Source: Nemertoderma westbladi (lineage: Eukaryota; Animalia; Xenacoelomorpha). Taken from it: 64,000 nucleotides of DNA. The translations under genes were made by a program, and so were the position numbers. The DNA is taken from positions 4,988-68,987 of the forward strand of contig JAUCBJ010003098.1 of NCBI GenBank assembly GCA_032718475.1, given 5' to 3'. How positions within the stretch are numbered: position 1 is the stretch's first letter; every line of letters starts with the position of its first letter. Below are positions 19,023-46,037 of this stretch, piece after piece. The notes under the pieces were generated by a model. The model was not told the origin of the DNA. It made no database searches and worked only from the letters and a program-made list of their open reading frames with translations.

Positions 19023-19043
19023 TCTATATTCGCTCCCCATTAG

Positions 19044-19462: not shown

Positions 19463-22391
19463 AATGATTCAAAGTAACTCATTTGACTAACTTATATTTT
19501 GCTTGCTAACTGATTGGTTTTGTGTTCTATGGATCAATGTATTTAGGTTTTATTTATAGACTCAGTTGTTCTTAAACGTTGTTTGTTAATCACCTGGAAT
19601 GCAGACTGAGTTCTGAGGATTAATAAAAAAAAAGGTTATTTATTAATTAGTTCTCAATGTATAATTAGGTATCACTATCGCATCAATTAGTAGTAAAATC
19701 CTAGAATGAATTTATCTTGACCATTTTGGCGCAAAACTAGATACTTCCGAGTCACAATTTGGTTTCAAAATAAGTTATGCACATAATTATGCACATACAC
19801 TCTAAAAGAATTCATAGAGTACTATTTAGATAAGGAAAGCCCAGTTTACATCTGACCCATATGTTGCCGTTATTCCCGACACCAGGGGGGAAAACGCCGA
19901 TGCTGGAGGCAGAACTTTCAGACCGCTATGTCCCGACCAGTCACCGGATATTGGGAGTGGAGAAGGACGTTGTCTTAAATGCAGAGTAGAAAAAGAGTTT
20001 TGTTGGTTGGATATTAATCTTTATTTGGTCGACACTCTGAACTCTGATTTGCACTCTGAAATCTTGCACTATGTTACACTGATTACTCTGATTGAGAATA
20101 ATTTGGGCTTCCCCACACCAATATACCAAATATTCACAATAATACACAAGATGAAATTCCTACAGTAAATTATTTAATTACCCCTCTGTTCGCTTAACTT
20201 TCAGATTTTGACCTAACTAATGTTCCCCATTTTCCCTTGGTCCTAGTCCCGGTACAGTAGTGTCAGCGTCGGTCGATCCATTGCTTGTCCGCTCCACCCT
20301 TCCTGATCCCATACGGGTCAGTCATTAGGAAAGCGGCGTGGCTTAGCTAGGGATTCTGTCGGTTCGTCGCAGTCAAAACTACCTATGCTTTCCGAGTCCT
20401 TTTCAGGCTCGTAATCACGTTAGTAGTCAAGAACCCGCTCTGAATAGTCGGTATGCCTGTAAGGTCCAGTAGTATACCGCTTACCGGATCCTAGTAACGA
20501 TGTATCTTACCGTAAGATCTAGTAATGTATACGGGCTCGTACAGTATCTGACAACAAATCCCAGTCCAGGATATCTAAACAAACAGATACAATACACAAA
20601 CTACTACTGGCGAGGAACAGAGCCTAGTGTCTATTCTATGTACGTGAGCGGGTCTAATGCCTACGAACTAGACAAAAGGATACCTGTCCTCTAACCGGTG
20701 AGGCAGATGTACAGTTACAGTAAAAGACCAAACTCACGGGAAAACAATCCCCGCGCAGCGAATCCTAACTATCGCTGACAGTCCTAAATACCATAACTTG
20801 CCGCGGTGTGATTTATATGGTTTATATACGAGCTAGTGGGTTAACAGACCTAGCGTAACAACACTGATTCAGTCCTAAATCAGTCGAAAAGGGGTCGTGC
20901 CTAATGTAACAATACTGCTGAGCAGAAAAAAACAGTTTAATAACGAAAATGAAATACTCCTTATTGCCGTAACTAAATATCAGATCCTAATTTACAAATA
21001 CAGATAAATTCTACCTAAAGTAATATATAGTACGCTATAACTAGTAGAACTCTAAGGGTAAATATGTTTTAGGGCGTGTGTGTGTGGGTGTGTTACAATA
21101 AAACAATTTTGGTGTATATCTTTTCACTAGGTTTTAGTGATTTTCTGACCGAAATGATACCGTGCGCTAGCTACTAAAATAAGCTAGTCGCATTTTGTAG
21201 AACTTTATACTCACAAATGACGTCAAAGCTCTCTCCTTCCTATCCACAACTCAATGGGCAACCACGGTGTTAGTAACTACACCCGTGATCGGCACTAATA
21301 CCAGATTCTGGTTGTAAGATAAGAAATAGGGGTTAATCGCTACCGTACGTTAGCTGATCTGGTATACAAATTTAATTCTAGAACTTTGTTGCCGCGGTAG
21401 TTAGCAGCAAATACCTATCAGTACGTGGCAAGGCGCGGTAGGATATTAATAAAACCTCCCTAGGCCAAGCGGTGTGCCGGTAGCAGAAATACTACTTGCC
21501 TGATCAAATAACTAACTTCAGACAGGGGGGGGGGGGGGGGGGGGTACTAATGTATGTTCTACAAGCGAACCGGTACCAAACAGTCAGTACTACGAATCAC
21601 TAAATTATGGAACATATGCTGTCCGTACCTATGTACTCGCGTACTGACGAATGGCAATAGCTCGCACCTGTGAGAAATACAGGTTAACCCAGGGGTTCGC
21701 AGGACTGACAAAGGGGTTTCTGCCTAAATATAATTATTTGATCCTAAATTTTGCGGCGTCCAGGACGGCGTCACGCTTACCCTGATCTATAGGTCTTACG
21801 GCGGGCAAGGGCGTCGAACAAAGTCTTACCTTCCTCATAAAGCGGGCGCTGCATGGCAAGTGGAGTATTTCGAAGGGCAAAGGGGGTGCGCGGTCAAATC
21901 CAATGTGGGCGCTAGCGTGTTGTGGACATCTTTCCCCTGCGTTGCTGACGGCCTAACGGTCTAGGCTGCCATCTTCCCGATGTTTGGCTGTCCCAAGGTT
22001 GGACCAAAAGAAAACATGTCCAGGAGTTTGCAGTGTATTTACAGTTTAGCAAAAGATTTATCAAACAGAATTACGATAGTTTCAACAAGAAACCAACAAA
22101 GTATAACGAAATGATTAGTGCAACTAGTGCAGCAAGTTTACAAGAGTAAGTTAAGCAAGTAGAAGTACAAATGTGTGTGTGATAACCAAAGGCAAACCAG
22201 CCCTTTATATACTAAATCTGGGACATAGAATTCACTAGAACCTTCGAGAGTATTCGATGGCCTCACATTGGAGCAATAAGATATTCCATGCCCTATGATT
22301 GGCCCAACTCATCGTTCGATACGTTGTACGCACCTCATTGGCTTACCAATCTGTACCAAATGAAAATAAATGGCCCCAAAATACAAATTTC

Positions 22392-22460
22392 CCGACCGGG
22401 ATTCGAACTCGTAACCTATCCGTAATGTAACCAACGCCTTAACCATCTGACCACTACGCC
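22392..22460 (-). other. tRNA-like / SINE-head sequence
   Basis: Minus strand ggcgtagtggtcagatggttaaggcg...gagttcgaatcccggtcggg with A and B boxes. The anticodon arm is irregular. Confidence 0.5.
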
Positions 22461-23198
22461 ACGAGAGTAACTAGGGGTTTTATGTATACAAATATGAATA
22501 GGCATATTACATTACTGTAACTTACTCAAAATGCGTCGGATTTTCGAAAGTTTTTACGTTAAAGTTAAACTACAAATGCTATCTTATAGTGAAATAATTC
22601 ATCACCGCTCCATGAAAACAGTAAGTAAGACTGTTTTCACCAATCGAAATACAAAATATTTACAAACTACTTCTAAATCTACTGGTGGGGCCTAAAATAT
22701 AAAATAATCACTATCTAATTATTGCATACTTAATATTGCAGATACGGCGTAAATACAATCGATCGTACATACAAATACAAATTTACCAATTAACTTTAGT
22801 GCCTAAAATACAAAAATGCTTTCGGTTATCAAGATAAACAAATCAAACAAATCAGAACAAATAAATCAAAACAAACCGAACAAATAATTGTAACTTCTTT
22901 CAATAAATCTTTATATATTGTAAATACATAATAAACTTCCACCAAATTAAATCAGTTCAAATATAAAATAAACATAAAGCGCTAATAACTTCCAAATAAG
23001 TCTTAAAGTGTCCCTTTGACGATATGAAAGTTCGTCCTGCTGGTCTGGATATCTTCTCCTGAGCACTAATTGCTAACGGTAGGCTCGCAAGCCTTCCTTT
23101 CCATATCTCGTTCTTCCAAATCCAACATTCATACATAATATCCGAATATAAATATCCAAATATCGGTAGGCTCGCAAGCCTTCCTTCTTCTCGCTTTC

Positions 23199-25325
23199 CT
23201 ATTCCTTTGCTGAGCGCGCTCGTCCACGTCCTCTATTGCGATTGGGTGGTGGTCGAGGTCGAACTGGGCTCGGACTTCGGCGTCGAGTTGTCGGTGGTTC
23301 CAAAACGCTAGGAAAGGAGACGACGGGAGTTTCGCACATCTGTCGTGCGCTCAATCCTCTAAATCCTCGTCCGATTCCAACTGTCGGCTTAACATCGGAT
23401 CGAGTCTCCACAACGCTAGGAGGAAGTCGAAAGGGTGGGACTGTTCCGTCCGCTGACACCTCGCTCTCTGACGTCGTTTGAATCCTAATGGGTTCCGGCA
23501 AAGCGTATCCTGTCCCTCCGCGTGGTTCTCTAGCAAGGGAAACCGTGCTCCGAGTCATCCGGATTTGCGACTTCGATGTCGTCCTCTCGGCGACATTTAC
23601 TATCTTCTTTATCTCTTGTCCGGCCTTCTGGGCTTTGAGTATACGAAATTGCTGATCATCCTGTGGGTGACGCGTCTTCTCTGCTAACGACGTGGCCTTG
23701 AAGCCAGTCTCACGCAAAATGTCGGTCTCGTCCAGAATACACGAGGTTACACGTTTGTGATAAAATGCGCTCCGGTATGCCCAAGCTATCGAATGCCAGG
23801 CTCCTCGATTCCGCTGTTCAACTCGCAGTTTATCGAATTCTCCGGCGGTAATCTTGTTCACCACAGTTTGAAAGTTCCAAGTATTCTTGTTGTCGGGGTG
23901 CACCTGTAAGAAATAGTCCCGCACAACTTTGAATCTACTGTCCAATGGCAATATATCCAACACCTCCAACAATTCATCATACTGAGGCATAGCCGATACA
24001 TATCCTTCCTTTGACATTATGAGAGGGTTTACGGCCCAAAATCCCAAATGTGCTCTCATAGGGAAACGGCGTCGCTGCGTCGATACATGCTCGTCTGCTA
24101 GATCCTCCCAATGGTCGAATAACTGTCGAACGATTTTAACTGACATGTGCTCATAGGGGACGTCTCTAAGTTGACATTCGGATGCCCTATGGCCCTTAAT
24201 ATTACAATAAGTGCACTGCGCCACGAAACGCCAGCAAGTGTAGAAAGTGTGCGAACGTTGATCCCCGCACCAGTTGCATACTAAATCCAGTAGAGGTATG
24301 TGCTTCGCCCCGCATTTCTTTGCGTGGTGGCCAGTTGCCCCGCATCTGCCACAAATAGTGTTGGCAGGGTACCAAACTCGCTCATAGATGAGATCTCCGA
24401 TGGGGCGAGCGCTACCGTCCACGTGATAATTCTCATCATCCGGGTCAGTCGGTATGTTCGTCTCCGTAGGTTGTACACAAACCATGGCATCGCTTTTCTC
24501 CAACTCGCGTATCTCAGTTCACGTCTTCCTTGGAAGGTTCTCCTATATCTCTATGAGTTGCCGCAACGGTTCGTCTATTAGCGCCAACTCGGTCGGATCC
24601 ACATCGTCGTGATGGGCGGTAGGCTCACGAGCCTTCCAGGATCCTTCCGGGCGTTCGAATTCCGCGGGGCGTTCCCCGTCGTAGGGTACTAACGTTAACA
24701 TCGACGGTCTGTCGACTAGACTTCCCGCGTGAGTGAGATAGACGTCCCTGAAATAGCTAAGTCCCGCTCGCGTGAAAACTTCGCAGTGCGCATCGGTGTT
24801 ATAAAAGGGTTGGAGAAATCGTCGGAATACATCAGTATGCGTCCTTCCTCCATGGTAAAAGGTATGTCCTTCGCCGAGACATAACGGGTGTCGCTTTAGG
24901 GTTCTGGATACTACATCCGCGATGAAACAAACGTTAACCGAAGATTCTATCGCTAAATAGTATTGCAAGATTATTCGCGGAGGTGAAGTAATCGCCCAAT
25001 ACACGCAACCTCGCCACTTCAACTGTGACTCGAACTCGTTTACGCCGGGGGTATCTCTCTCTCCGTATACATCCGTGTATTTGCTCCTCTTACTCTCCTT
25101 GTAATCCCAACTGAACTTTTAGCGTGTTATACTCCCTAAAGTATCCTTGCTCGATAGCCCAAAGCAACAATGGTCTAGTATCCACGTATGGCGTAGGCAA
25201 TCGGTCCTCTTCCGTGGGCATTCCCACAAAGTCGCTAATAAGGTCATCCCGTACACCGGATCCGATCTTGACGATGCTCTTGTCCAACACAACGTCTCGC
25301 ACGGCCTTTGGTAACATCCTAGCTT
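23199..25325 (-). pseudogene. Frameshifted, 5'-truncated DEDDy-like exonuclease + triple CCHC zinc-knuckle gene (paralogue of 35484-37691)
   Basis: Fragments: 25090-25317 (LPKAVRDVVLDKSIVKIGSGVRDD), 24543-25022, and 23199-24503 (CGRCGATGHHAKKC, CNWCGDQRSHTFYTC, CTYCNIKGHRASEC). Confidence 0.7.
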
Positions 25326-25689
25326 CTATGCTACAAGCCAGATTGATTTATTATTAACTAGAGACTTTTTTTCAGTTTCACACTGACTTGTAAAGGTAAC
25401 TTTTTATCACAAAGCGTGATTATTATAAAGTATTTGCGTGTAAAGGTGACTTTATTGAGTAAATATTGGTGATAGTTTAATGTGAGCATGGGATTAGGTA
25501 TAAAACATTCGCATGTAAATGCGTGAGTTTACACCACCATAATAAAACATTAGCGTGTAAAACCTACTTTATCAATGAAAATTAAAAACGTATTATGCAC
25601 ATCTTGGTTTAGACTTGATTTTATTATAAAGAATTCAGTTGTAAAAGCAACTTTATTTATGATATTAGTTTCCAATGTAACTGTTATTT

Positions 25690-32428: not shown

Positions 32429-32459
32429 TTTATCTGATAAACAAAAGTTAAATGATTAA

Positions 32460-32912: not shown

Positions 32913-32914
32913 AC

Positions 32915-34174
32915 TTAATCGATATGTATTTCTTTCCTGCTATTTAAACTTAATGATTGATCATAAATATTAAAAAGGATTACATTTATGGTTTCAACCA
33001 ACGGTTCGGCAAATCTTAATTTTAATTGGCCGTTAGTATATATCGACGGTTGCGGATCTCTAACATAGCCGTCGGCGGTTAGGTCCCAGGATAGGAGGGG
33101 ACAATTACCTAAGTAGGTTTCATGGTCTATATTATTACCCCCATAACCGTTAATATATGTATTAATGTTTTTCATTAATTGAGTATACTCAAAAATGTAT
33201 GTTCCATCTGTAAAATTAGGCTCGTATATTACACCCCCTACTGGAAGACCGTCTACAATCAGTTCCGCGCGTCTAAGGTTAAAATGTTCAAATTTCAAGG
33301 GATTGCTAATTAATTCTCCCGAATAAACGTTATTTGTTATGAAGCCGATAATAACTAATTTGGGTTTTTTACCATCAAATATGTTTGTTTGGGTGTAATT
33401 TGTGGTTTGAGCGGGAATAGTAAATGTTGTAACCTCCTTTTTTTGAAATTGATATTCAATATCGTAACTCTCTAAACCTTTTAGGTGACTGCTTTCTATT
33501 ACCGGATTAACCTCCATTCTAGGGATTAGGATCTTTATTTCATCTAATTCTAGCCGAAGATTTGTCACCGCGTTTGCGTTTGGAGTGATTTTAAAAATAA
33601 ACGAATTTGATACTTTTCTAAAATGCATTCTTAAATCATACCCGGGTTGTATTATTTTGCTTTCAGTATCAAAATCAATCGTCAATCCACTTACAAATTG
33701 CATTTGTTTACTAAAGGCATCACCAATAGGATGCGCGCCGGGATCAATTTCATTTCCGTGCTCAGATAAAGGTTGATGAAAGCCACCCGCACCCAGTAGC
33801 CCATTTTTATCCTCGTAAGTTGTAAATAATAAATTGGATAAGTACGACTTGTAGAAATAATGGTTATTGCTATTTTCAACCTGCTTCTCATTAAGGTCTA
33901 TTTTAATATCACTCCACATAGTTTCAGCGGGGTAATTCAGCATATATATATGGGAGTTTTCAAGTCGTCTATCCAATCGTACAGTACATTTTGTAATTAA
34001 TAACGCATCTTGCAGTTTCGTATAGAATTCATTGGATCTCGGTACAAGGAACGTGACTTCCCTAGACTCACTTCTGAGATTAGATACAGGGTAAATTGTT
34101 TCATAATGCTTTGCTTTAAATTCAGTCTGTATTGGCTGTGTAGAAAATAAATCTAATTCCTTAATAATTGACAT
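32915..34174 (-). CDS. Polinton major capsid protein (double jelly-roll)
   Basis: 419 aa with N-terminal ELDLF..PIQT, YFYKSYLSNLL, NPLKFEHFNL, WDLTAD and LKLRFAEPL. Lies next to the protease as in Mavericks. Confidence 0.88.
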   Translation of the reverse strand: MSIIKELDLFSTQPIQTEFKAKHYETIYPVSNLRSESREVTFLVPRSNEFYTKLQDALLITKCTVRLDRRLENSHIYMLNYPAETMWSDIKIDLNEKQVENSNNHYFYKSYLSNLLFTTYEDKNGLLGAGGFHQPLSEHGNEIDPGAHPIGDAFSKQMQFVSGLTIDFDTESKIIQPGYDLRMHFRKVSNSFIFKITPNANAVTNLRLELDEIKILIPRMEVNPVIESSHLKGLESYDIEYQFQKKEVTTFTIPAQTTNYTQTNIFDGKKPKLVIIGFITNNVYSGELISNPLKFEHFNLRRAELIVDGLPVGGVIYEPNFTDGTYIFEYTQLMKNINTYINGYGGNNIDHETYLGNCPLLSWDLTADGYVRDPQPSIYTNGQLKLRFAEPLVETINVILFNIYDQSLSLNSRKEIHID

Positions 34175-34234
34175 TATTAAAAAATACTTTTTTCGCAGTG
34201 TTTTAGTTTGCCTTTTATTTTTCTATTTTTATTA

Positions 34235-34771
34235 TGTGACGGGATCCAAGAGGGATCCCGGTTTATCCGGTTTTAGTTCACGCGTCCCCGCCGTGTATAA
34301 AGAGTGAATAAGTTCGTGCTGTTTGTCGTGTATAATATGATATGCAGGTATAGATATAGATATAGATATATTGTCGTATACGGAAGGTGGGATACGGTAA
34401 CTAAAGTCCCGGTCCTTCTCTAGCTAAACTATTGTAACCTAATCTAGCACCGGTATTGCACTGAGATAACTGAATTGGTATTATTACTGCCAAGTGGCTA
34501 TATTGCACGGTTGGCCTTGTTACTCTACCTAATCGATGCCTTTCCCCCCTCTGATTGGTTGATACCCTTGTTGGCGCCCTTTGGAGTGTTCCCGTTCACT
34601 CCACCTATTCTCTCTGGGTTAGGGGTTTGGCCCCTGACCCTCATTGTGTGCTTCTCCTTCCCATTCTCATTGGGATGGCACGAGTTGGTTAATTACCCAA
34701 TCTCGTGGCTCCCAATATTGCTTATCGGCTTATAACTTTATGGGGTGTTAGCGGGATTGAATAAGCTAACA
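34235..34771 (-). repeat. LTR of family A (3' LTR on the minus strand)
   Basis: TG...CA, 537 bp, preceded on the minus strand by the PPT gggggggag. Homologous to 44943-45492. Confidence 0.88.
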
Positions 34772-35483
34772 CTCCCCCCCATGCTATCTTCCCGGTAAGA
34801 AGATAGCATCAACCAAAAAGTGCGCTACAATCCCGCTGGATCCCGATCTAGTATCGGGTGTGGGGTGGAATTCTTTTCTCTCGGAGCCGGCTTTCCAGGC
34901 CGCCCCCTATGGGTATGATAATGCTACCCTGTGTGCCTGGCATCTCATGTCGGGCCGATCGCGCTCACCTCTCACGCAACTTTTGTTTCCCCAACACTTC
35001 CGCCCTATCTCTTCTTCACTCTCATTGTAACTCTCCCATACACCCGGACCTCCTCGTCCCTCACTCAGCCTCTTATTCTCCCTCCCCACACTAGAATTGC
35101 GTCCGCACTCTCTCCGCACTTCGCACTAACTACTCTGTCCCTCAACCCTACTTCGACTGCCTTGTCCCTTCAGACGAATCTCCCCCCCCCCCTCTTGTGC
35201 CGTCGCACTCAAGAAGTGTGAAATTGTCTGGTGTCTCGTCCATAGTGCCATAGTCAGTTATCCCCCAGTCCCAGTAGCTAATTGAGAAAGGTTGTATGAC
35301 TATAGTACTTACTCCGAACGTATATATTTCTAGATTACTAATTACTACGTACGTACATACAAATTGCACTTATATGATTATTTGCATTAATTAAATTTGT
35401 ACTTAATAGTTCGTACGTCCCACGCGGAGCCTTCCAGGCGCACCACGTCCCAGTCTCAGTCTCTATCCCTCGACTCTGGGAAC

Positions 35484-37691
35484 CTATCTGTTCCTCTGGG
35501 GATAGTTCCCCCTGGCGTCCTCTTCCCTGGGCCGTTTCTTGGTTATCACCGTTCCTCTGGCATCATCCGCTTTCTGCTTTCGGACCTTCGCCGCCACTTC
35601 CTTGCTGATCCCGGTCGTTGGCTCCTTGGGCGCTGGTGTTATTAGTGCCCGATATCGCTTCGCCGGTGGCCCCTCAGAGTGGCCTGGTTGTCTCCCTCTG
35701 GTGGCGTCCCATAGGATCATTTTCATTGCCTTTGGTACGTGCTCCGCCAAGAAATCCCTAAACTCCCTTCGGTTCTCTGGCGTCCACCTGTCCAAATACC
35801 TTTGCGTGTTCATTACTCCAGCGTACGACGCCGCCGTTGCTACCTCTTGGTAGGTAAACGGTAGCCTCCGCTTTATGATTTCCATGTGAGTCTCCTGATT
35901 GATAAGGAAGAAACCCCACTTGAACTCCTGGGCCTTCATGCGCTGGCGCGTCATGGCCCCGACGTCGGCCCACTCCTCGAATCTTGTGAACTTCTCCTCG
36001 TCGTTCATCCAGTCGCACTCGCGTCCGTAGTGTCCCCGAAAGTGACACTTTGGACATCGGTTATGCAACCGTGGACACGCCCCCATCCTGTGGCTTGGTT
36101 CTCTGCAGTAGAGACAAAAGGTTCCCTGTTGGAACCGGTATAGGCAGCTGCTTTCCCGATGGGTCTGTCTCCCACAGTAGTCGCAGCCGAGTACCAATGT
36201 CTCCCGTCCCACCTCGTCTTTCGTCCCAAGCGATCTCCGCGGTCTGTGGGGTCGCTGGTAGGCGAACTTCTCTACGTTGGTCTCTCTATCTACGTCGATC
36301 TCTCCGCCCCTCTCGGGCATCGTCTCCCCGAATACTATCCATGGTGCCATCCCCGGTTGCTCGCCCAACCTGATGGTGCTCCCCGCGAAATCCATCGCCG
36401 GCTCCTCGTGCACCCAGGTCCGCTTGCCGGATCTGTTCCAGAAGGCCCTCGCCCCACTGGCCGTCACCACCCTTCCGCCAACCCAGTCCGTGTCCGAGTG
36501 GCCTATCCTCTCGATGGGCGGCATCTCTCCGAACTCGTCGTCGTCGTCCTCCTCTTCTGGCAGTGTCTCCAGCCCCGGTATCCCGATGGATCCACTATGT
36601 CCCTTCCCGCCTTGGCTCTCGCCCGTAGCTCTCCATCCCTCTAGCTCCCTTAACTTCCTTGGCGGTTGGTCGCCCTCGGCGCCCGCTGGTATGGGCATCG
36701 TTTGCAACCCCGACGTCGACTGTTTCGGCGATCCCACCGTCCATCCCAATTCTCGCCCTAGAGACTCCCCCGAACTCCCTGATGAAGTCCAATGAAGTTC
36801 GTCTAGGCCTGCCTGTTCCTCGAAGCCGTAACTCTGTGTCCTGGCCTCCTCTTCCCTCTCCTCTGCTTCTGTCCTCTCCCATCTAGCGACTTCTTCCAGT
36901 CGCTTTGCTTCTCGTCTATCCGTTTCTAGCTGCTCCCATCTCTGATACGGTGTATCTGTCTCCCCGTCTACCAGATGCCGGCTGTTGTAGTACACCGATT
37001 GGCCGCATTGGCCTGTGTTTTCGACTACCCCCAACCCATCCGGTGCCGTCATAGCCATAAAGACTTTCTGCATATCCAGGAGGTTGGTGGCGTCCGGACC
37101 GATGATCCTCTCCGCGTCCTCGCGAATCGCCGATCCCACTTTCGTTGTCGACTTCTCTCTTACTAAGACTTGTACCGCTTTCGGTAATCGGTCTAATTTC
37201 GGCCCGTCCTTCTTCCCATACGTCCCTAGGTCGAATAAGAAGATGTCCCCATTTGGCGCGGCCAAATGTAGGAGTATGGTCCTGGCCGACCCCGCAGTTC
37301 CTCGTCTCGAACCCGCCTCGTCTTCCACGGTTCCCTCATCATCTAGGATCATATATCCTCCTCTGTTGACGGACTCTATGAATCTCTTCCAGTCCTTCCT
37401 CGGTGATTCCCTCGGGTACTTCGGAATCCCGAACTTCGCCTCGTCCCCTTTCACCACGTAGTGGAAGTGTTGGAAGATCGCGTTGTCCAGCGACGGCATC
37501 CCGTAGGTCCCGACCAGCCGCTGTTCGTGCATCTCCCTGAAGTGATCCTGCAGCGCTCGCGCCGCGTGACCCCTTTCCAACCTCTCGTAGTATCCTCTCG
37601 TCTTCTCTTCCGGATGTCTCTCGGTGAAATCCACCAGTATCTCCTTTCCTCCTGACTCCGCTTTTCTCTTTCTGATCAACTTACTCGCCAT
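35484..37691 (-). CDS. 735-aa DEDDy-like 3'-5' exonuclease + acidic linker + triple CCHC zinc-knuckle protein inside the family A LTRs
   Basis: ExoI-like ILDDEG (aa 115-120), LHLAAPNGDIFLFDL, LPKAVQVLVREKSTTKVGSAIRED (ExoII-like). Knuckles CDYCGRQTHRESSC, CLYCREPSHRMGAC, CPKCHFRGHYGREC. Confidence 0.75.
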   Translation of the reverse strand: MASKLIRKRKAESGGKEILVDFTERHPEEKTRGYYERLERGHAARALQDHFREMHEQRLVGTYGMPSLDNAIFQHFHYVVKGDEAKFGIPKYPRESPRKDWKRFIESVNRGGYMILDDEGTVEDEAGSRRGTAGSARTILLHLAAPNGDIFLFDLGTYGKKDGPKLDRLPKAVQVLVREKSTTKVGSAIREDAERIIGPDATNLLDMQKVFMAMTAPDGLGVVENTGQCGQSVYYNSRHLVDGETDTPYQRWEQLETDRREAKRLEEVARWERTEAEEREEEARTQSYGFEEQAGLDELHWTSSGSSGESLGRELGWTVGSPKQSTSGLQTMPIPAGAEGDQPPRKLRELEGWRATGESQGGKGHSGSIGIPGLETLPEEEDDDDEFGEMPPIERIGHSDTDWVGGRVVTASGARAFWNRSGKRTWVHEEPAMDFAGSTIRLGEQPGMAPWIVFGETMPERGGEIDVDRETNVEKFAYQRPHRPRRSLGTKDEVGRETLVLGCDYCGRQTHRESSCLYRFQQGTFCLYCREPSHRMGACPRLHNRCPKCHFRGHYGRECDWMNDEEKFTRFEEWADVGAMTRQRMKAQEFKWGFFLINQETHMEIIKRRLPFTYQEVATAASYAGVMNTQRYLDRWTPENRREFRDFLAEHVPKAMKMILWDATRGRQPGHSEGPPAKRYRALITPAPKEPTTGISKEVAAKVRKQKADDARGTVITKKRPREEDARGNYPQRNR

Positions 37692-38552
37692 TCCGAACGT
37701 TCACTCGCTCACCTGCAAGGTGGTGCCTTACCAAGGCGCAATACAGATGAGTGATGTATCTAAGATGTTCTGTACGGTTCGATAATGGCCTATTTCCTAC
37801 TTAACTGCGCCTTTTAACCTAAATTATTCCTAATTAATTTTGAAGCTAGTAAATGAGCGTAATTTACAATTTCTGTCCGTTACTTTTATTATGTTCTAGA
37901 ATAACTCCCCTTGTGTTGCCACTATTTTACAACTTTCAGCTCTATTCTGTTTATTTATCTATTTAATTTGATTCTACTGTCCTACTACTTACTACTGCCT
38001 ATGGATTATGTATCGTGAGATATGAAAAGTAGGTGCACGTTAAGGGTTGCAACTATATTCCTTTATGTTTCAACCTAAAATAATTCATATAACAATCATA
38101 ATTCGCTTGACCGGAAATTATACAGAGTAAGTTTATTCACGGTAATTAACATATAATAATCTACAACGATATACTAAATAATAAGGGTATAATGTGATAA
38201 TCATATACTTACACAATAACGGGCATAACTATCCAAATTGATACCGACATTCAGGCATATCCTAACCCAGTCAAGTATACAGTATAAACAATAATATAAA
38301 TATATGTATAAATCTTATCAATGTTGTACAAATTATATTCAATAAAATGAATGTCCAAGTATATCCTATATGAGGTACACATCTCATAAACATTGTCCGT
38401 TTACAGAGAGCACCATAATTAAACAATTAATCAATGACCTGAATGCCAGATGTTTAACTTAATTAATTGCAGTCAGTTACCCCATGCCCCTCTCAGGCAT
38501 AGAGTGCAGTATTACAAGCCAATGTAATATGATTGGTAATCAATTTATCGTT

Positions 38553-41500
38553 TCACGATACACTCCCACCAAATTGTTCTTCCATAGGTAATATCACAAC
38601 TAGTTTATGAACTGACCGACGAACAGATGTATCTGGTTTTCCTTTATAAACAGAACCAGGTTTCAAGTTTTTGTAACGTATAACAACGTCTCGTACTAAA
38701 CCATCTTTACCTGGCTTCGCCTCTTTAACTTGAGCTAGTTTCCAACAGCCCCGCGGTACCTTGGTATCTTGAACAACTACAATATCTCCAACTTGAATGT
38801 CTCTGACTTGTACATGCCACTTTTGTCGAACAATTAGGGTTGGAAAGTAATCCCTAGTCCACTTTCTCCAGAATGAGTTTACCACTTCTTGAATGAACTT
38901 CCATCGTTTATTATTATCGTTGGATGTGTCCCATGTACCAGCTGGACATTTAGATGTAGCTCTTCCCAATAAAAGGTCATTTGGGCATAGATAGGTACCA
39001 TCTTCTGGATCCATGCTCCTCAATGCGATTGGTCTCTCATTAAGAAGGTTAGCTACCTCAAATAATACAGTTTGCAATTCTGAAAATGTCATTATTGAAG
39101 ATCCAATTGCAAGAGTAATACACCTTTTAGCGGATTTAATTAGAGCTTCGCTGCATCCATTTTCCCATGATGCTTTAGCCGACTTTGTCAATTCCCATTC
39201 AAATCCTTCCTTTTCGCCAAACGATTTTACTTTATCCCAATTCCAATCATCCACAACCTCATTCATCTCATGACTACAAAGTTGAGGTCCTGCATCCGAT
39301 CTGATCTTTCTAGGGCATCCTCTTAGTGATATGAATCTACGCAAAACAATAATAAAGCTATCTGTGCTATATCCTTCAGCTAGATCAATATACACCGCTC
39401 TACTAGATGAACAATTGAAAATGATCCCATATGCTTTCATTCGAGTTCGCTTCTTAACAGTATCCTTGATATAGAGAGGTCCAAATAAATCAACAGCACA
39501 AAAATAGAATGCTGGTGATGGCTCCATTCGTTCTAAAGGCAGGTCTCCCATTTGTTGTTCAATGACCATACCTTCAAGCCTTCTACACTTGATACATTGT
39601 TTCTTAATTAGTTTAATTATTCTTCGTACACCAGGAATCCAATATTTGCTTCGAACCTTAGCTAGAGTAGCTTCAACTCCAGAATGATCTCTATTATGCA
39701 TCTCGTTAAGATACAACTTTATAAAATCTGATTTTGAGGGTAAAAGAATAAATTCTTGTTTGTTCCAATTCTTCTTTAACCACTGAGACATTCTTTTCCC
39801 AACTACTATTACTCCTCTTTCATTCAAACTCGGTCCCAATCGACGGTATCTATGTCTCCAGTCTGTAGGCAGTTCAGATTGAAGGTAAAGAATCCATATA
39901 TCTTCGGCAATGTTTATTTCATTATTGGTCAGCCCCATTCCACCTCCATTGAAAGATCGAGACTTTGCCACCTTCAAAATAATTGCTGTGACACTTAACA
40001 ATGTGTGAAAGTTCGAAAATCTATCAACATTAATGTCTTGTAAATCACATGATTCTGTATTCATTTCCTGTCTCTCTGCCTGAACCACCATTGATACTCC
40101 AATGACATCCGGAATTTCATCCTCGGGTATGCTGCAATCCTTGCGCAAAGGCCAAATTTCAATAGGATATTGTAAATATTGAGGACCAGATTGCCATACA
40201 CTGTTCTCTCCTATTTCCATTGGATGAGTAATCCTCGTTGTCAGATCTGCAGGATTCTCATTAGTGGGAACCCACCACCAACTATCCACTTTTGTTTTAC
40301 TCTGGATCTCCGCTACCCTTGTTGCAACAAACGTCCCAAATCCATAACTCTCTTTCTGAATTTGTGCTCGTACAATAGTGGAGTCCACAATATGAAATAC
40401 CCTCGAAAATTCCACATCGACTGCGCTTTCTATTTTTTCACTAAGACGGGCCGAGAGCACTGCTCCACATAATTCAAGTCTTGGAGTTGAAAGTTTCTTT
40501 ACTGGAGCAATTCGATTCTTCGCTGCAATAAGACGTGACTCAAATTCATCCATGCCAATCTCCCATCTGATATATGCACAAGTACCATAAGCAATCTCAC
40601 TTGCATCCGAATATATAACAAGAATTGGTTTCCCATAGGCCCCTTGGGGTTTGAAACATCGAGGAAACAAAAGATCCTCCAAGTTAAATAAGTTTTTGAA
40701 AAAGCTAATCCACTCTAATTTGAGCTCTCCAATGATCGGTTCATCCCACCGTGAACAAGAATTCAAATCATTGTTGATAGATTTTCTCATCATGCAATGC
40801 TTTCTTAAAAGGACTTTACCACCTACTGAAACAGGAACAACGAACCCCATTGGGTCATAGAGTCGAGCCATTAGACCGACAACAATTCTAAGAGTTAAAT
40901 CCATTTCACTCAACATCGAAATCAACTCATCAATACCACCAATTTCCTTGATCTTCTTATCTGATTTGTTGGATAATTTAAGCTGTACCTTAAACCTAAA
41001 GTTATCTCCTTTGGTATCCCATATCATCCCCAAAACCTTTTCGGAATCTGGTTGTAGAACATTAAGTTCCTTACAGTATGCATCACTAGATGAACATTCC
41101 TCCTGGTCATTTATTCCAGCGAAAATCCAATGTTTGACAAAAAAACCGCCACGTCCCAGCAGTTTTTCTGTATCCTTCGCTAAGTCGATTAGATCACTTT
41201 GCTGATCCTCAGATGTCATCAAATCATCAACATAAATTTTTTCAGTGACAAAATTTGCTGCTCTAGGAAATTCTTTAACACCCATTGCTGCAGTGTTGTG
41301 AATTGCTTGTGTTGCTATTCCTCCACTAGGTTTATCGCCAAATCCAACAGCTGTTAACATGTAATGATCAGGTGAACGATTAATCTCCATATTCCTCCAT
41401 AGAAAACGATGAACATGTTGATCCATCAAGCACATGTTTACGGAATTATACATTTTTTTTATATCTCCAACAAGAGCAATGTATCCTTGCCGAAAGCGAA

Positions 41501-43076
41501 TTAATATTTCCATTAAATTTTTTACTAGATTGGTTCCTTTAGCCCAGTACTCATTCAAAACATGACCCATATAAGATGATGATGAATTAAATACTATCCT
41601 TATTGGTGTTGATTGTGAATCCGGTTTTAAAACTTCATGATGAGGGATATAATGTATCGGCCCATTGTATTCTATAATCTCACTATTACTTAATTTTCGG
41701 GCGACCTTTCTCTGTATCATGTCCTTTATTTGATCGTCGTACAATTTAGAATACTCCAGTCCCATTTTGCTAAGGCGATTCTCTGTAGATCTTAATCTAG
41801 CTACTGCGACATTCACATTATTCGGTAGATTAGACGGACTTTTTATCCACGGATACCTAATTGTCCACTTTTCAGATTCCTGGTTATAGGAAAGTCCATC
41901 CCATATGAGTGCCATTCCCCTTTCTTCTTCAATAGTGCAGTTGCTGTTCCCAATGGCACACCTTCCACATTTACATGACCCACATTTGGGAATACACTGA
42001 GTTCCCAAGCTTTCAACATCAAACATTTCTCTAAGTTCATCTACAAGCCTACTATCCGATACTATCATATGATTAATATTAGATCTTGTAACCTTGCTTC
42101 CCATTATATAGAACAATTGAACATAACTACACTCTCCAGGATTTGGAATATTCAGGATTGGATGATTCCCTCTCAGGCAGAATCCAAATTGATTATTCAA
42201 TAATTGCAAATTGTTTGATTGAGCTACAACCTTGGGCAATAGCTTACAACAATCTGATCCTATTAATAGGTCAACTGCACCACTGGGCCTTTCAATTTCT
42301 TGAAGAGATATACCTGGAAACAAAGACGTTACCTTTGCCACATCTATTCGTGTTATATTCGCGGTAAGTTCCTGCATGCCATAAGTTCTCACATACCAAG
42401 TGACACCATATGCATCTAATAAAGGGACTATATATTCCTTACTAACTAATTTGTCTGTAACATTCCCAACTTTCGTAACATGTAAGATAACTTCCTTTCC
42501 ATTCAATCCAAGTCGTTTGGCAGTACTGTGTGTTATGAGAGAAAAATTAGCGCCTGAATCCCACAACACCGTGAGAAATTGTCCATTACATTTAACTTTG
42601 CTTAAAGGAAGAAGAACGCCATTATTTGAAAAATCGTTGTTTATAATTTTCAGAGAATTGTGGAGTGATACTCCACCAGTTCCTGTCCTATGAAGTAATG
42701 GATGGTGAATTTTGCCACACCTCAGATTGTGACCAAAAATCAATTCACATGGTTTACGTTGTGTGCAATTTCGTGATAGGTGACCTAATTGTAAACAACT
42801 GAAACAACCTCCCTTTCTACGGAGAACATCCAATCTTTGTTCTACATTTAATCTTCGGAAAATTTCACATGATGCCGTATCATGCACATTAGAATTATGA
42901 TACCAACAATATTTATTGTAATTAGTGAATGTTAAATTTTGAGTTCTATTTCTTTCTGGAAAACCTTGTGATTTATTCCTTTCTGGGAAATGTAATCTAC
43001 TCATATCTTGAACTTGTCCTTGTGAACCGGAAACAATTTGGGCTACCTGAGCCAATCCTTCAACAATCTTGTTCAT
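38553..43076 (-). CDS. pol: BEL/Pao Pol: Zn knuckles, protease, RT, RNase H (Pao peptidase A17-like), integrase
   Basis: CFSCLQLGHLSRNC, LWDSGAN, YIPHH, DIKKMY, YVDD, YSDASE, PRLELCGA, H..DHSG...CIKC, VDLFGP, RSDAG, WENGCSE, FWRKW. Confidence 0.95.
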   Translation of the reverse strand: MNKIVEGLAQVAQIVSGSQGQVQDMSRLHFPERNKSQGFPERNRTQNLTFTNYNKYCWYHNSNVHDTASCEIFRRLNVEQRLDVLRRKGGCFSCLQLGHLSRNCTQRKPCELIFGHNLRCGKIHHPLLHRTGTGGVSLHNSLKIINNDFSNNGVLLPLSKVKCNGQFLTVLWDSGANFSLITHSTAKRLGLNGKEVILHVTKVGNVTDKLVSKEYIVPLLDAYGVTWYVRTYGMQELTANITRIDVAKVTSLFPGISLQEIERPSGAVDLLIGSDCCKLLPKVVAQSNNLQLLNNQFGFCLRGNHPILNIPNPGECSYVQLFYIMGSKVTRSNINHMIVSDSRLVDELREMFDVESLGTQCIPKCGSCKCGRCAIGNSNCTIEEERGMALIWDGLSYNQESEKWTIRYPWIKSPSNLPNNVNVAVARLRSTENRLSKMGLEYSKLYDDQIKDMIQRKVARKLSNSEIIEYNGPIHYIPHHEVLKPDSQSTPIRIVFNSSSSYMGHVLNEYWAKGTNLVKNLMEILIRFRQGYIALVGDIKKMYNSVNMCLMDQHVHRFLWRNMEINRSPDHYMLTAVGFGDKPSGGIATQAIHNTAAMGVKEFPRAANFVTEKIYVDDLMTSEDQQSDLIDLAKDTEKLLGRGGFFVKHWIFAGINDQEECSSSDAYCKELNVLQPDSEKVLGMIWDTKGDNFRFKVQLKLSNKSDKKIKEIGGIDELISMLSEMDLTLRIVVGLMARLYDPMGFVVPVSVGGKVLLRKHCMMRKSINNDLNSCSRWDEPIIGELKLEWISFFKNLFNLEDLLFPRCFKPQGAYGKPILVIYSDASEIAYGTCAYIRWEIGMDEFESRLIAAKNRIAPVKKLSTPRLELCGAVLSARLSEKIESAVDVEFSRVFHIVDSTIVRAQIQKESYGFGTFVATRVAEIQSKTKVDSWWWVPTNENPADLTTRITHPMEIGENSVWQSGPQYLQYPIEIWPLRKDCSIPEDEIPDVIGVSMVVQAERQEMNTESCDLQDINVDRFSNFHTLLSVTAIILKVAKSRSFNGGGMGLTNNEINIAEDIWILYLQSELPTDWRHRYRRLGPSLNERGVIVVGKRMSQWLKKNWNKQEFILLPSKSDFIKLYLNEMHNRDHSGVEATLAKVRSKYWIPGVRRIIKLIKKQCIKCRRLEGMVIEQQMGDLPLERMEPSPAFYFCAVDLFGPLYIKDTVKKRTRMKAYGIIFNCSSSRAVYIDLAEGYSTDSFIIVLRRFISLRGCPRKIRSDAGPQLCSHEMNEVVDDWNWDKVKSFGEKEGFEWELTKSAKASWENGCSEALIKSAKRCITLAIGSSIMTFSELQTVLFEVANLLNERPIALRSMDPEDGTYLCPNDLLLGRATSKCPAGTWDTSNDNNKRWKFIQEVVNSFWRKWTRDYFPTLIVRQKWHVQVRDIQVGDIVVVQDTKVPRGCWKLAQVKEAKPGKDGLVRDVVIRYKNLKPGSVYKGKPDTSVRRSVHKLVVILPMEEQFGGSVS

Positions 43077-44110
43077 TACTGCTTGATTATTCTGTAGCTG
43101 TTCAGTAAAAGTTGTGAAATTATCATGTGGATTTTCGTCCGACTATTGCTAGTTGAGGCTGGATAAGTCTCACCAGTTAAATGGTTTATGCGCCCTTGCC
43201 CTTTATTTACAAGATTATCAGGTTTTCTCACATCATCATCCAGATATTCCATGGCATATTTTTCCTCTAATAAAAATTCTAGAAAATGTTCAAATCGCGA
43301 CTGTCCTGAACACTTATGTTTCAGTAGTGCCCATTCTCTTTTCTGAATAGTGGGTAATAATTTCTCTATTTTGCCAGTCATTGATGCTGTATTCATTTCC
43401 GATTCTAAATTCATCTTTTTCAAATCCAACCAACATTTTTCCACCATATTTACCATATCTACAAATTTACCATTGCAATTCTCAGGAACCAGTTGTAACT
43501 TATTCAGCTCAGACACAATAGAATCAATTAGTTTTTCTGGTATTCCATACTTTTTATCTAAGCGATAAAACATTTCATCAAAATTATTCCCAACACCTTC
43601 CACAGTACTTAATGCTTCGCCTGTTAAACATGTACGCAATGCAAAGGGATCCTTACCATGCACATCTGTCATATGTGAGTTATAATCTGATTTGAACGTT
43701 GGATAATCTCGAATTTTACCACTAAATGTTGGCGCATCTAATTTTTTAACTTTACAGTTTCCACTCTTCCCTCTTGCGGGTTTGTCATTATCAAGAGAAA
43801 ATTTATTCGATAATTTAGTACACATGGCTCTCGCATTACAAAGTTCCCCATAAATATTATCCAAATCATTATTAACCTCACCTACCTTTGCATTATCGGC
43901 GCCATCATCAGAGTCAAATAGACAAATATATCTATCATGGCTTGCCTCGAGCTCTGTATAAGCAGTTTCTAGATCCATAAGAATTCGCTGAAGTACTGGT
44001 ATCATTTCGTCGTCGTCCTGTCTGGTGCAATCCATAAATTTTCCATAGACTCTGTGAAATTTTCCCTTGGCAGTTCCTCGTTTATGACGAAATTCTTTCC
44101 GGTTTTCCAT
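43076..44110 (-). CDS. gag: BEL/Pao Gag (DUF1759-like)
   Basis: KKLDAPTFSGKIRDYPTFKSDY, LRTCLTGEA, RLDKKYG, IEKLLP...W. Confidence 0.88.
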   Translation of the reverse strand: MENRKEFRHKRGTAKGKFHRVYGKFMDCTRQDDDEMIPVLQRILMDLETAYTELEASHDRYICLFDSDDGADNAKVGEVNNDLDNIYGELCNARAMCTKLSNKFSLDNDKPARGKSGNCKVKKLDAPTFSGKIRDYPTFKSDYNSHMTDVHGKDPFALRTCLTGEALSTVEGVGNNFDEMFYRLDKKYGIPEKLIDSIVSELNKLQLVPENCNGKFVDMVNMVEKCWLDLKKMNLESEMNTASMTGKIEKLLPTIQKREWALLKHKCSGQSRFEHFLEFLLEEKYAMEYLDDDVRKPDNLVNKGQGRINHLTGETYPASTSNSRTKIHMIISQLLLNSYRIIKQ

Positions 44111-44708
44111 CTTAGTCCAATGCGTCTGATAATTCGTATCCCATTGTGTTGAAATGTATCGTGAGATATGAAAAGTAGGTGCACGTTAAGGGTTGCAACT
44201 ATATTCCTTTATGTTTCAACCTAAAATAATTCATATAACAATCATAATTCGCTTGACCGGAAATTATACAGAGTAAGTTTATTCACGGTAATTAACATAT
44301 AATAATCTACAACGATATACTAAATAATAAGGGTATAATGTGATAATCATATACTTACACAATAACGGGCATAACTATCCAAATTGATACCGACATTCAG
44401 GCATATCCTAACCCAGTCAAGTATACAGTATAAACAATAATATAAATATATGTATAAATCTTATCAATGTTGTACAAATTATATTCAATAAAATGAATGT
44501 CCAAGTATATCCTATATGAGGTACACATCTCATAAACATTGTCCGTTTACAGAGAGCACCATAATTAAACAATTAATCAATGACCTGAATGCCAGATGTT
44601 TAACTTAATTAATTGCAGTCAGTTACCCCATGCCCCTCTCAGGCATAGAGTGCAGTATTACAAGCCAATGTAATATGATTGGTAATCAATTTATCGTTTC
44701 ACGATACA

Positions 44709-44880
44709 CTTCTCTTGGCTCGACCTCGGGTTCCAGGCGGCCCCCCTCATCCTGGACTGCCGGGTGACCCGTTACCGATGGGTCCGGCGTTGTGGGCCTG
44801 TACCGCCTGGTTGCGGCCTCGCGGATCGTTGATTCTTCGTCCGGGGTCCGCGTCGGCGTTGTCTCTCCCGACTGGCTCAT
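44709..44880 (-). pseudogene. N-terminal stub of the family A first ORF (probable gag), cut by the BEL LTR
   Basis: ATG 62 nt inside the 5' LTR. The GC-rich open frame is truncated at the BEL LTR edge (44708). Confidence 0.45.
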
Positions 44881-44942
44881 CTCGCTTGGTGGTTGGTGGC
44901 TGGTGGTTTAGCTGGCTAGGGGAACAGTTCCGATTTAATTAC

Positions 44943-45492
44943 TGTGACGGGATCCAGGAAGGATCCCGATTTATCCGGTTGTTTAATTCACTCGTCCCCG
45001 CCGTGTGTATGAAAGGTAAAAGGGGAATCCGTGTCGTTCGTTGTATATAATAACTGATATAGATATAGGGTATATAGATATAGGTGTACGGATAATGTTG
45101 TCGTATACAGAAGGCGGGATACGGTAATTAAAGTCCCGGTCCTTCCCTAGCTAAACTAACTAACCTAAACTAGCACCAATATTACACTGAGATAACTGAA
45201 CTGATATGATTACTGCCAAGTGGCTATATTGCACGGTTGGCCTTGTTACTCTACCTAATCGATGCCTTTCCCCCCTCTGATTGGTTGATACCCTTGTTGG
45301 CGCCCTTTGGAGTGTTTCCGTTCACTCCACCTGTTCTCTCTGGGTTAGGGGTTTGGCCCCTGACCCTCATTGTGTGTTTCCTTCCCATTTTGTTGGGGTG
45401 GCACGAGTTGGTTGATTACCCAATCTCGTGGCTCCCAATATTGCTTATCGGCTTAACTTTATGGGGTGTTAGCGGGATTGAATAAGCTAACA
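44943..45492 (-). repeat. LTR of family A (5' LTR on the minus strand)
   Basis: TG...CA, 550 bp, followed on the minus strand by a short leader and an ORF start (MSQSGETT..., 44880). Confidence 0.88.
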
Positions 45493-46037
45493 AAAATAAT
45501 TCAACCCTAAGTCCTGTCGGTCATATGAGGCTGCTACTATGTAGCCTACTATAGACTTACAGTCTTCTTTCTTATCAAATATATTCTTTCGAATTTTTGA
45601 TAATAATATTAAATGCTTCAAGAGTTAAATTATTCCTTATAAACGATTTTATTTTTAAATTGTTACTATTTCGATCGAATATACCTCATAATGGGATCAA
45701 TAGGATTGCATTGATTTCACTTTTTTCCCGGTGGAAAAAGGTCGAATAAAATATTCTTTGTGGAATTTCTTAAATCTAAGTAAAATAGGTTTGCAAGTAA
45801 TTGTCTGTAATTGTAATTGTTTGAAAATGTCTGTAAAGCGAACTCCAAAACGGAACTCAATATCCAATATTGGTTTATGTAGTTAAGCGGCTCTCTAGTT
45901 ACGTAATAAATATTCGAGAACACTAAAGCATGCATCGAGAATAGTGAATAAAAGTTATACTTTTTTCCCATGTAATAAATAATAATATTTTTGTTATTTA
46001 TACTTTAATTAACGTTGAATTGCCGTTATGATTTTAG

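What the first reader, a model, noticed from the sequence alone, without database searches (positions are those of the whole stretch)
34235..45492. LTR element carrying a DEDDy-like exonuclease + triple zinc-knuckle cargo gene
Seen: between the family A LTRs, upstream of the PPT, lies an open 735-aa ORF. It has an RNase D/WRN/EXD-like exonuclease N-terminus (ILDDEG; LPKAV..LV..KS..KVGS.I.ED), an acidic linker, three CCHC knuckles and a further conserved block (F..FEEWAD....T.QR.....WGFFLIN). It sits in the env/ORF3 position and shows no capsid, protease, RT or integrase motifs; a weak acceptor (ccttgcag) lies 21 nt upstream of the ATG. Established: DEDDy exonuclease ORF3s are reported in bdelloid-rotifer and nematode LTR elements, and host DEDDy proteins (Mut-7/Nibbler, EXD1) act in small-RNA pathways. 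Inference: I do not recognise this exonuclease-knuckle fusion. It may be a retrotransposon accessory RNA-binding nuclease, for example an anti-piRNA or RNA-trimming factor. A clear ExoIII YxxxD motif is not visible, so it may be catalytically partial.
Basis: partly seen in the sequence, partly recalled or inferred. Interest (0 to 1): 0.85.

Follow-up and report, generated by a model that had tools for sequence, protein, structure and literature searches.

The report
Retrotransposon carrying an RNA-trimming enzyme
A very abundant family of BEL/Pao jumping genes carries an extra, strongly conserved gene for a protein predicted to grip RNA and trim its end, which likely helps these elements copy themselves from a self-made primer instead of a host tRNA; the copy in this window is a damaged hybrid of two such elements.

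Summary
The ORF is real (37691-35484, minus strand, 735 aa), but this copy misleads. It lacks 114 codons that intact copies have, including the ExoIII helix. Its two LTRs come from different subfamilies, joined across an unrelated nested BEL element, with no target-site duplications. Intact relatives (150 of 150 scored hits, 97-100% identical) are ~14-kb BEL/Pao retrotransposons: LTR, gag-pol, ORF3 (843-850 aa), PPT, LTR. ORF3 is an EXD2/WRN/Nibbler-type DEDDy exonuclease fold (profile E=1.6e-15; Z 14), three CCHC knuckles and a helical domain with no structural match. It is under strong purifying selection (dN/dS 0.02 in the nuclease). ExoIII carries Glu instead of Asp. Six ORF3 families occur in this genome, and about 35 unnamed proteins elsewhere share the architecture. 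All six families have no tRNA primer site; the bases after the 5' LTR pair with the LTR itself, with compensatory changes. Eleven ORF3-less elements share that trait, so ORF3 is not needed in cis; the two ORF3-less sister families counted are rare (5 and 1 copies). Best guess: an RNA-bound 3'-5' trimmer acting on the element's own RNA; anti-small-RNA is the main rival. DEDDy cargo and exonuclease-knuckle fusions are each known; I found neither reported for BEL/Pao.

The parts
34235..34771 (-). 3' LTR of family A, subfamily A1 (537 bp, TG..CA)
   Evidence: 98% to LTRs of intact A1 copies
34397..34405 (-). 9-nt LTR site complementary to the primer-binding site of A1/A2 copies; it does not match the window's own 5' primer site
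34772..34780 (-). polypurine tract
   Evidence: sequence; same in 9 of 9 other copies
34781..35483 (-). 3' untranslated region
35484..37691 (-). ORF3, 735 aa; internally deleted copy of an 843-850-aa gene
35688..36014 (-). conserved helical C-terminal domain (FEEWAD, WGFFLIN); no structural match found
36015..36185 (-). three CCHC zinc knuckles
36995..37005 (-). junction of the net 342-bp in-frame deletion (about residues 232-346 of intact copies, including ExoIII)
37116..37142 (-). ExoII motif (KVGSAIRED, D192)
37332..37355 (-). ExoI motif (YMILDDEG, D117/E119)
37692..38008 (-). last 317 bp of the ~1.2-kb pol-ORF3 spacer, with an ambiguous splice-site-like motif near 37712
38009..44708 (-). 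nested, unrelated low-copy BEL/Pao element (identical 554-bp LTRs, gag 44185-43076, pol 43142-38553, no ORF3, no TSD); it stands where family A gag-pol should be
44709..44942 (-). 5' leader of subfamily A3
44934..44942 (-). primer-binding site, not tRNA-like; complementary to 45124-45132 in its own LTR
44943..45492 (-). 5' LTR of family A, subfamily A3 (550 bp), from a different element than the 3' LTR
20458..25341 (-). second, 5'-truncated and broken ORF3-bearing element (family B): ORF3 remains 25341-23199 and 3' LTR about 22606-20458

Best explanation
The ORF is the third gene of an abundant, recently mobile BEL/Pao retrotransposon family and encodes a predicted 3'-5' exonuclease with three zinc knuckles, which likely binds the element's own RNA and would trim an RNA 3' end to help make or keep the primer in these apparently self-primed elements; the window holds a deleted, hybrid copy. 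Shown: family anatomy, copy abundance, purifying selection, conserved acidic residues, primer-site/LTR complementarity with covariation. Predicted: the fold. Inferred: catalytic activity (about 0.7), RNA as substrate via nucleocapsid-like knuckles as in TbRND, expression from a subgenomic RNA, self-priming (about 0.85), and the primer-trimming role itself (about 0.4). ORF3 is an accessory that would raise efficiency, not an essential gene. The identity part (BEL/Pao ORF3, DEDDy fold, knuckles) is at least 0.95; the confidence given is for the whole mechanism.
For: Intact anatomy with 5-bp TSDs in 6 of 7 two-LTR copies; BEL pol domains upstream. Family profile hits EXD2 at E=1.6e-15 and TbRND in both its nuclease and knuckle parts. 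The model matches Nibbler at Z 14.3 (205 residues, rmsd 3.9) and WRN at Z 13.8 (179, rmsd 2.9). In 32 diverse sequences: ExoI D 31, E 31, ExoII D 31, Tyr 30, ExoIII D 20 / E 10. dN/dS is 0.02 in the nuclease and C-terminal domain and 0.08 overall. All six ORF3 families have 9-13-nt self-complementary primer sites, with paired changes in A3, B', D and E; none of 9 TGG-type elements has ORF3. The LTR site has no consistent TATA/Inr spacing in 15 LTRs, so it need not be the RNA's 5' end as in Tf1, which leaves room for trimming. In TbRND the knuckles bind RNA and boost 3' trimming (PMC7797062, passages). ORF3 families are abundant; two ORF3-less sisters gave 5 and 1 copies.
Against: Eleven of 40 surveyed BEL elements are self-complementary yet have no ORF3, most with near-identical LTRs, so they moved recently without it in cis. 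All self-complementary elements form one clade, so the ORF3 association is close to one data point. Tf1 makes its primer with RT RNase H (recalled; the title of Levin 1996 is listed in PMC4600332). ExoIII has Glu, not Asp. Abundance fits an anti-silencing role equally well, and families C, D and E were found through neighbouring loci, which favours abundant families. No transcript ends or activity data are at hand. Rotifer DEDDy ORFs occur in gypsy and Penelope-like elements (PMC5408684, passages), so such cargo is not tied to this lineage. The 20 copies used for dN/dS were picked among best hits with long open frames, which biases dN down.
Confidence: 0.42

Rival explanations
1. ORF3 is an active counter-defence nuclease that trims or destroys host piRNAs/siRNAs, or removes U-tails from element RNA, and so lifts silencing.
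For: The nearest folds are small-RNA enzymes: Nibbler, EXD1, Egalitarian, TbRND. ORF3 families dominate: 6 of 7 assignable chance BEL pol hits in 1.5 Mb of fetched loci, against 5, 1 and 13 matches for three ORF3-less families. It is dispensable in cis and patchy on the pol tree (at least 4 changes).
Against: A diffusible suppressor should also help ORF3-less relatives, which stay rare. No small-RNA data. It does not explain confinement to the self-complementary clade.
Confidence: 0.28
2. ORF3 is a catalytically weak or dead RNA adaptor, like Egalitarian or EXD1, that binds, localises or packages element RNA.
For: ExoIII Asp is Glu in all six families. The top Foldseek hits are Egalitarian-RNA complexes. 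The knuckles are nucleocapsid-like.
Against: Three acidic positions and the Tyr are kept in 30-31 of 32 sequences at about 20% identity, and the fourth stays acidic in 30 of 32.
Confidence: 0.15
3. ORF3 is a WRN/EXD2-like DNA exonuclease that tidies cDNA ends before integration.
For: The best profile hit is EXD2 and WRN is also hit. DEDDy domains in Dada DNA transposons are proposed to process DNA 3' ends (PMC3706591, passages).
Against: The knuckles point to single-stranded RNA. ORF3-less relatives integrate with normal 5-bp TSDs.
Confidence: 0.1
4. The window shows a non-autonomous LTR element, or a captured host gene, with a naturally partial nuclease.
For: No family A gag-pol lies between the two LTRs in the window; 3 of 20 fetched copies also lack the pol end.
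Against: At least 150 near-identical copies, most with ~850-aa frames; the deletion junction is unique; the LTRs come from two subfamilies and have no TSD.
Confidence: 0.02

Closest known systems
DEDDy ORF3 of bdelloid rotifer Juno/Vesta LTR retrotransposons and Athena/Terminon elements (PMC5408684, PMC6431247; passages)
   Same: RNase D-like exonuclease as a separate ORF3 after pol; patchy distribution; activity not shown; a possible link to copy number was noted there too
   Different: Here the host elements are BEL/Pao. The protein adds three CCHC knuckles and a novel helical domain. The motif variant is D-E-D-E rather than DEED. Purifying selection is strong here; the rotifer paper saw no significant departure from neutrality in its ORF3s. 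Sequences were not compared directly.
Trypanosoma brucei RNase D, TbRND (PDB 7C42/7C45; PMC7797062, passages)
   Same: DEDD exonuclease followed by CCHC knuckles; profile hits cover both parts; Z 12.9
   Different: A cellular mitochondrial gRNA trimmer with four knuckles and a 28-residue linker. ORF3 has three knuckles, a ~270-residue mostly disordered linker and an extra C-terminal domain. Common origin of the fusion was not tested.
EXD2 / WRN-exo / Nibbler (Mut-7) / EXD1 / Egalitarian exonuclease domains
   Same: Fold and ExoI, ExoII, Tyr positions
   Different: About 10-18% identity; a family-specific insertion between ExoII and ExoIII; Glu at ExoIII; encoded by a mobile element
Tf1/sushi, Tcn1 and TAR self-priming retrotransposons (PMC4600332, PMC6317226; passages)
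   Same: 9-13 nt right after the 5' LTR are complementary to a site in the element's own LTR; no tRNA site
   Different: Those are gypsy or copia elements. In Tf1 the site is the RNA's 5' end, which is not established here.
Cer19-ORF2 of Caenorhabditis (PMC7084138; passages and supplement passages)
   Same: A BEL/Pao element with an extra, separately encoded knuckle protein
   Different: No exonuclease is mentioned (0 hits in main text and in 2 supplements). The knuckle spacing printed there looks gag-like.

Membership tests
BEL/Pao LTR retrotransposons (intact family A copies) | TG..CA LTRs with a short TSD and a PPT | tested here: met
   5-bp TSD in 6 of 7 two-LTR copies; the window copy itself has none
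BEL/Pao LTR retrotransposons (intact family A copies) | gag (DUF1759), protease, RT, RNase H (PF05380), integrase with DUF5641, in that order | tested here: met
   RT and rve match below the curated cut-offs, PF05380, DUF1759 and DUF5641 above them
DEDDy 3'-5' exonucleases (RNase D/WRN/EXD2 group) | RNase H-like DnaQ fold | tested here: met
   profile E=1.6e-15 to EXD2; Z 12-14 over residues 61-354 of an intact copy
DEDDy 3'-5' exonucleases (RNase D/WRN/EXD2 group) | ExoI DxE and ExoII D | tested here: met
   20 of 20 family A copies; 31 of 32 homologues at each site
DEDDy 3'-5' exonucleases (RNase D/WRN/EXD2 group) | ExoIII YxxxD | tested here: not met
   YxxxE in all six families of this genome and 4 outside homologues; YxxxD-type Asp in 20 of 32; the region is deleted in the window copy. 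So it is a DEDDy-fold variant, not a canonical member.
DEDDy 3'-5' exonucleases (RNase D/WRN/EXD2 group) | two-metal 3'-5' exonuclease activity | not testable with these tools
   needs a biochemical assay; active-site geometry in the model was not inspected
TbRND-type exonuclease-zinc-finger RNase D | exonuclease domain followed by tandem CCHC fingers | tested here: met
   (three fingers rather than four)
TbRND-type exonuclease-zinc-finger RNase D | orthology: a cellular, mitochondrial gRNA-trimming enzyme | tested here: not met
   encoded by a multicopy retrotransposon; closer by profile to EXD2 than to TbRND
Rotifer DEDDy ORF3 (Juno/Vesta) | DEED motif variant | tested here: not met
   ExoII is Asp and ExoIII is Glu here; DEED is stated in PMC5408684
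Rotifer DEDDy ORF3 (Juno/Vesta) | sequence kinship with the rotifer DEDDy ORF pool | not tested
   rotifer sequences were not fetched
Self-priming LTR elements (Tf1 type) | primer-binding site complementary to the element's own LTR instead of a tRNA | tested here: met
   p<=0.017 against 1000 shuffles for 13 of 22 elements tested, none of 6 TGG-type elements
Self-priming LTR elements (Tf1 type) | complementary site forms the 5' end of the transcript | tested here: inconclusive
   no consistent TATA, Inr or poly(A) spacing in 15 LTRs; no usable RNA reads
Self-priming LTR elements (Tf1 type) | primer released by RT RNase H cleavage | not testable with these tools
   needs biochemistry

The most novel reading that the evidence does not exclude
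A large clade of animal BEL/Pao retrotransposons has dropped tRNA priming for self-priming, and its most successful families carry their own knuckle-guided exonuclease that chews an RNA 3' end back to the edge of the LTR/primer-site duplex: a route to starting reverse transcription that differs from both tRNA priming and Tf1's RNase H cut, and that ORF3-less relatives would borrow in trans.
Probability: 0.22. Interest if true: 0.88.

Novelty: new variant of a known kind. Interest (0 to 1): 0.64.

Why it matters
Accessory genes of retrotransposons are mostly orphans with no testable function. This one has a recognisable nuclease fold, conserved catalytic positions, strong selection, six families in one genome and about 35 distant relatives, so its job can be assayed directly. 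It comes with a second, better-supported result: a whole BEL/Pao clade appears to prime on its own LTR, which I did not find described for this superfamily. If the nuclease makes the primer, that is a new way to start reverse transcription; if it attacks small RNAs, it is a transposon-encoded silencing suppressor in animals. The window also shows how one damaged copy can suggest a dead enzyme that is intact in the family.

Tried and rejected
Pfam gave nothing for ORF3, window or intact; PF01612 hit only 4 of 36 homologues, below cut-off. Word-based homologue searches found none. The C-terminal domain had no Foldseek hit at E<=0.001 and best Z 3.9; this does not prove a new fold. Atlas hits for it were all under 0.9. 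A self-encoded tRNA-like primer (as I recall for C. elegans Cer7; that paper was not held) was rejected: ARAGORN found 0 genes in 16 sources, Rfam nothing relevant, and no PBS complement in the 3' UTR. 'ORF3 is required for self-priming' was rejected by 11 ORF3-less elements. No RNA holder was listed; one run with a small share gave only short contigs and no splice joint, which says nothing on expression. Context of outside homologues: one 3.7-kb contig with no pol visible, so their link to BEL/Pao is not shown; 20 looked-up homologues had no names. B versus B' dN/dS was saturated. The maximum-likelihood tree did not finish; FastTree was used. Earlier scan notes returned nothing. Not-in-print claims rest on searches, open-access full text only; Repbase and GyDB entries were not searchable, and only one paper's supplements were searched.


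Full report
Observation. The ORF is open from 37691 to 35484 on the minus strand, 735 aa, with the motifs quoted and three canonical CCHC knuckles. It is followed by a 0.7-kb UTR, a PPT and a 537-bp LTR. The span given is not one element. Positions 38009-44708 are a separate BEL/Pao element with identical LTRs and its own gag and pol. Neither it nor the outer LTR pair has a target-site duplication, although two solo LTRs of the nested family do (L206, L209). The outer LTRs differ by 32 mismatches and 35 gap columns, against 0-9 mismatches in 7 intact copies. The 5' LTR and leader match another subfamily at up to 99%. So the 5' end of one element is joined to the 3' end of another across the nested insertion. 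Whether this happened in vivo or in assembly I could not test.

The family. A search of the own genome with the first 250 aa gave 1701 candidates; all 150 scored are 97-100% identical, most in ~850-aa open frames, and the other 149 match only to about residue 231. I fetched 20 of them, picked among the best hits with long frames. All 20 carry about 340 bp that the window lacks: a net 114-codon in-frame loss after residue 231, whose junction occurs once in the assembly. Sixteen of the 20 have the family's own pol end just upstream; three are internally deleted and one is at a contig end. Of 9 copies extended upstream, 7 show both LTRs 13.5-14.5 kb apart and 6 of these 7 have a 5-bp TSD. Gag-pol carries DUF1759, protease, weak RT, PF05380 (the Pao RNase H according to PMC3985635, passages), integrase and DUF5641. 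ORF3 is therefore the third gene of an autonomous-looking BEL/Pao family.

The protein. Pfam is blank. A profile of three families from this genome found 87 proteins at E<=0.001 among 1.84 billion; 36 match the nuclease part and 35 of those are at least 450 aa with knuckles. The 20 looked up have no names. A 36-sequence profile hits EXD2 (E=1.6e-15), TbRND in both domains, Egalitarian and WRN. The AlphaFold model of an intact copy (mean pLDDT 66; nuclease core about 85-93) matches Nibbler at Z 14.3, WRN at 13.8 and RNase D at 13.0 over residues 61-354. The window's deletion removes the second half of this domain. Intact copies have D117, E119, D192, Y289 and E293 in 20 of 20. Across 32 diverse sequences the first three acidic sites are kept in 31, the Tyr in 30, and ExoIII is Asp in 20 and Glu in 10, the Glu forms falling in one weakly supported group. 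I infer an active enzyme, with the Glu as the main doubt. The knuckle plus C-terminal part folds confidently (pLDDT 84) but the helical domain has no match. dN/dS between two subfamilies (75 pairs) is 0.02 in the nuclease, 0.02 in the C-terminal domain, 0.17 in the linker and 0.08 overall; the choice of copies biases this down.

More families. The window holds a broken second homologue at 25341-23199. It and neighbouring loci led to five more ORF3 families: B (1251 aa), B' (1241 aa), C (~874-aa frames), D (~1250) and E (~1422). Each search filled all 150 scored rows (B and B' share one list). Each family has BEL pol upstream.

Priming. No ORF3 family has a TGG-type primer site. The first 9-13 nt after the 5' LTR (offset 0-2) are the exact complement of one site inside the element's own LTR: A 7 of 7, A3 6 of 6 including the window, B 3 of 4 (the fourth end was mis-called by the script), B' 4 of 4, C 2 of 2, D 2 of 2, E 3 of 4 (no LTR pair in the fourth). 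The sequences differ between families, and both sides change together within A, B', D and E. To test a link with ORF3 I took 40 of the 150 best PF05380 hits, chosen for long frames and varied scores. None has ORF3. Nine have TGG-type sites, 11 are self-complementary at 9-13 nt, and 20 were unresolved, negative or lacked an LTR pair. Against 1000 shuffles, 13 of 22 elements tested had p<=0.017 and none of 6 TGG-type elements did (elements were picked after seeing the matches). On a FastTree of 42 pol rows (short frames and two long branches left out) all self-complementary rows lie in one clade (support 98), with ORF3 scattered in it (at least 4 changes) and the 8 TGG-type rows outside. Self-priming as in Tf1 (PMC4600332, PMC6317226; passages) is thus likely a clade trait that does not need ORF3 in cis. 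The site shows no fixed relation to TATA, Inr or poly(A) motifs in 15 LTRs; in A a TATA-like/Inr pair would put the start about 66 nt upstream of it (inference).

Abundance. The ORF3-less relatives of A and E gave 5 and 1 matches, and the nested BEL 13 LTR matches. In 1.5 Mb of fetched loci, 6 of 7 non-focal BEL pol hits assignable at 85% or more belong to ORF3 families; about ten more pol-like hits could not be assigned, and C and D were discovered in those same loci. This is suggestive only.

Mechanism. I commit, at 0.42, to an RNA-bound 3'-5' trimmer that works on the element's own RNA and improves self-priming. The reasons are the TbRND-like pairing of knuckles and nuclease, confinement to the self-complementary clade, and the lack of evidence that the site is the RNA's 5' end. 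Anti-small-RNA action (0.28), a pseudo-nuclease adaptor (0.15) and cDNA end processing (0.10) remain open. How ORF3 is expressed is unknown: the motif upstream of the ATG reads as acceptor or donor, and AG-ending motifs lie within about 60 nt of the ATG in most families (by eye).

Known versus new. DEDDy ORF3s are known from rotifer LTR and Penelope-like elements (PMC5408684, PMC6431247, PMC6338049; passages), and the exonuclease-CCHC fusion from TbRND (PMC7797062; passages). Cer19-ORF2 is a BEL/Pao extra knuckle gene with no exonuclease mentioned (PMC7084138, passages and supplement passages; 10.1101/2024.05.01.592119, passages). Passages of PMC554778, PMC13524379 and PMC13277809 had no mention of an exonuclease. 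I found no report of a DEDDy-knuckle ORF3 or of self-priming in BEL/Pao; subscription papers, Repbase and most supplements were out of reach. Verdict: a new variant of a known kind, interest 0.64.

Noticed in passing
G000 BEL/Pao elements, e.g. L133, L135, L137, L139, L143, L153, L157, L161, L169: Self-complementary primer sites (9-13 nt) in 11 of 40 surveyed ORF3-less BEL elements; with the ORF3 families they form one clade. This may be a first case of Tf1-like priming in BEL/Pao and deserves its own study.
   Followed up: yes
L075:5401-9999, L090:4091-9997: Gag-pol of families A and B has an 850-900-aa N-terminal extension with no Pfam match before DUF1759.
   Followed up: no
window about 22380-22470 (-); L082 about 8980-9070: The family B LTR (2.3 kb) holds a tRNA-like stretch with A- and B-box-like motifs; ARAGORN and Rfam did not call it, and it does not pair with the primer site.
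   Followed up: partly
L021:3214-4500: The pol-ORF3 spacer of family A contains an array of about 35-bp repeats, possibly an internal promoter or enhancer.
   Followed up: no
window 26172-34222: Polinton-like region next to the 3' LTR: polymerase-like ORFs (by eye), a TBP-fold ORF (PF00352, E=7e-9), an adenovirus-type protease (PF00770, E=4e-5) and a possible capsid ORF at 34222-32915.
   Followed up: no
window 14117-18290 (+): Broken non-LTR-like element (RT-like and restriction-endonuclease-like text by eye, no Pfam match) with a proline/valine repeat region.
   Followed up: no
window 5598-8074 (-), 9253-10374 (+), 18422-19462 (+): LINE fragment (endonuclease E=1e-11, RT start) and two intronless RRM ORFs.
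   Followed up: no
window 47162-56715 and 57435-64000: Two long satellites, with units of about 40 bp and 49 bp; a coiled-coil-like ORF at 46019-47164 precedes them.
   Followed up: no
L022, L027, L028: Three of 20 family A copies lack the pol end but keep an open ORF3: possible non-autonomous derivatives.
   Followed up: no
L136:3315-4007: The ORF3-less sister of family E has a different 231-aa ORF in the ORF3 position with no Pfam match.
   Followed up: partly
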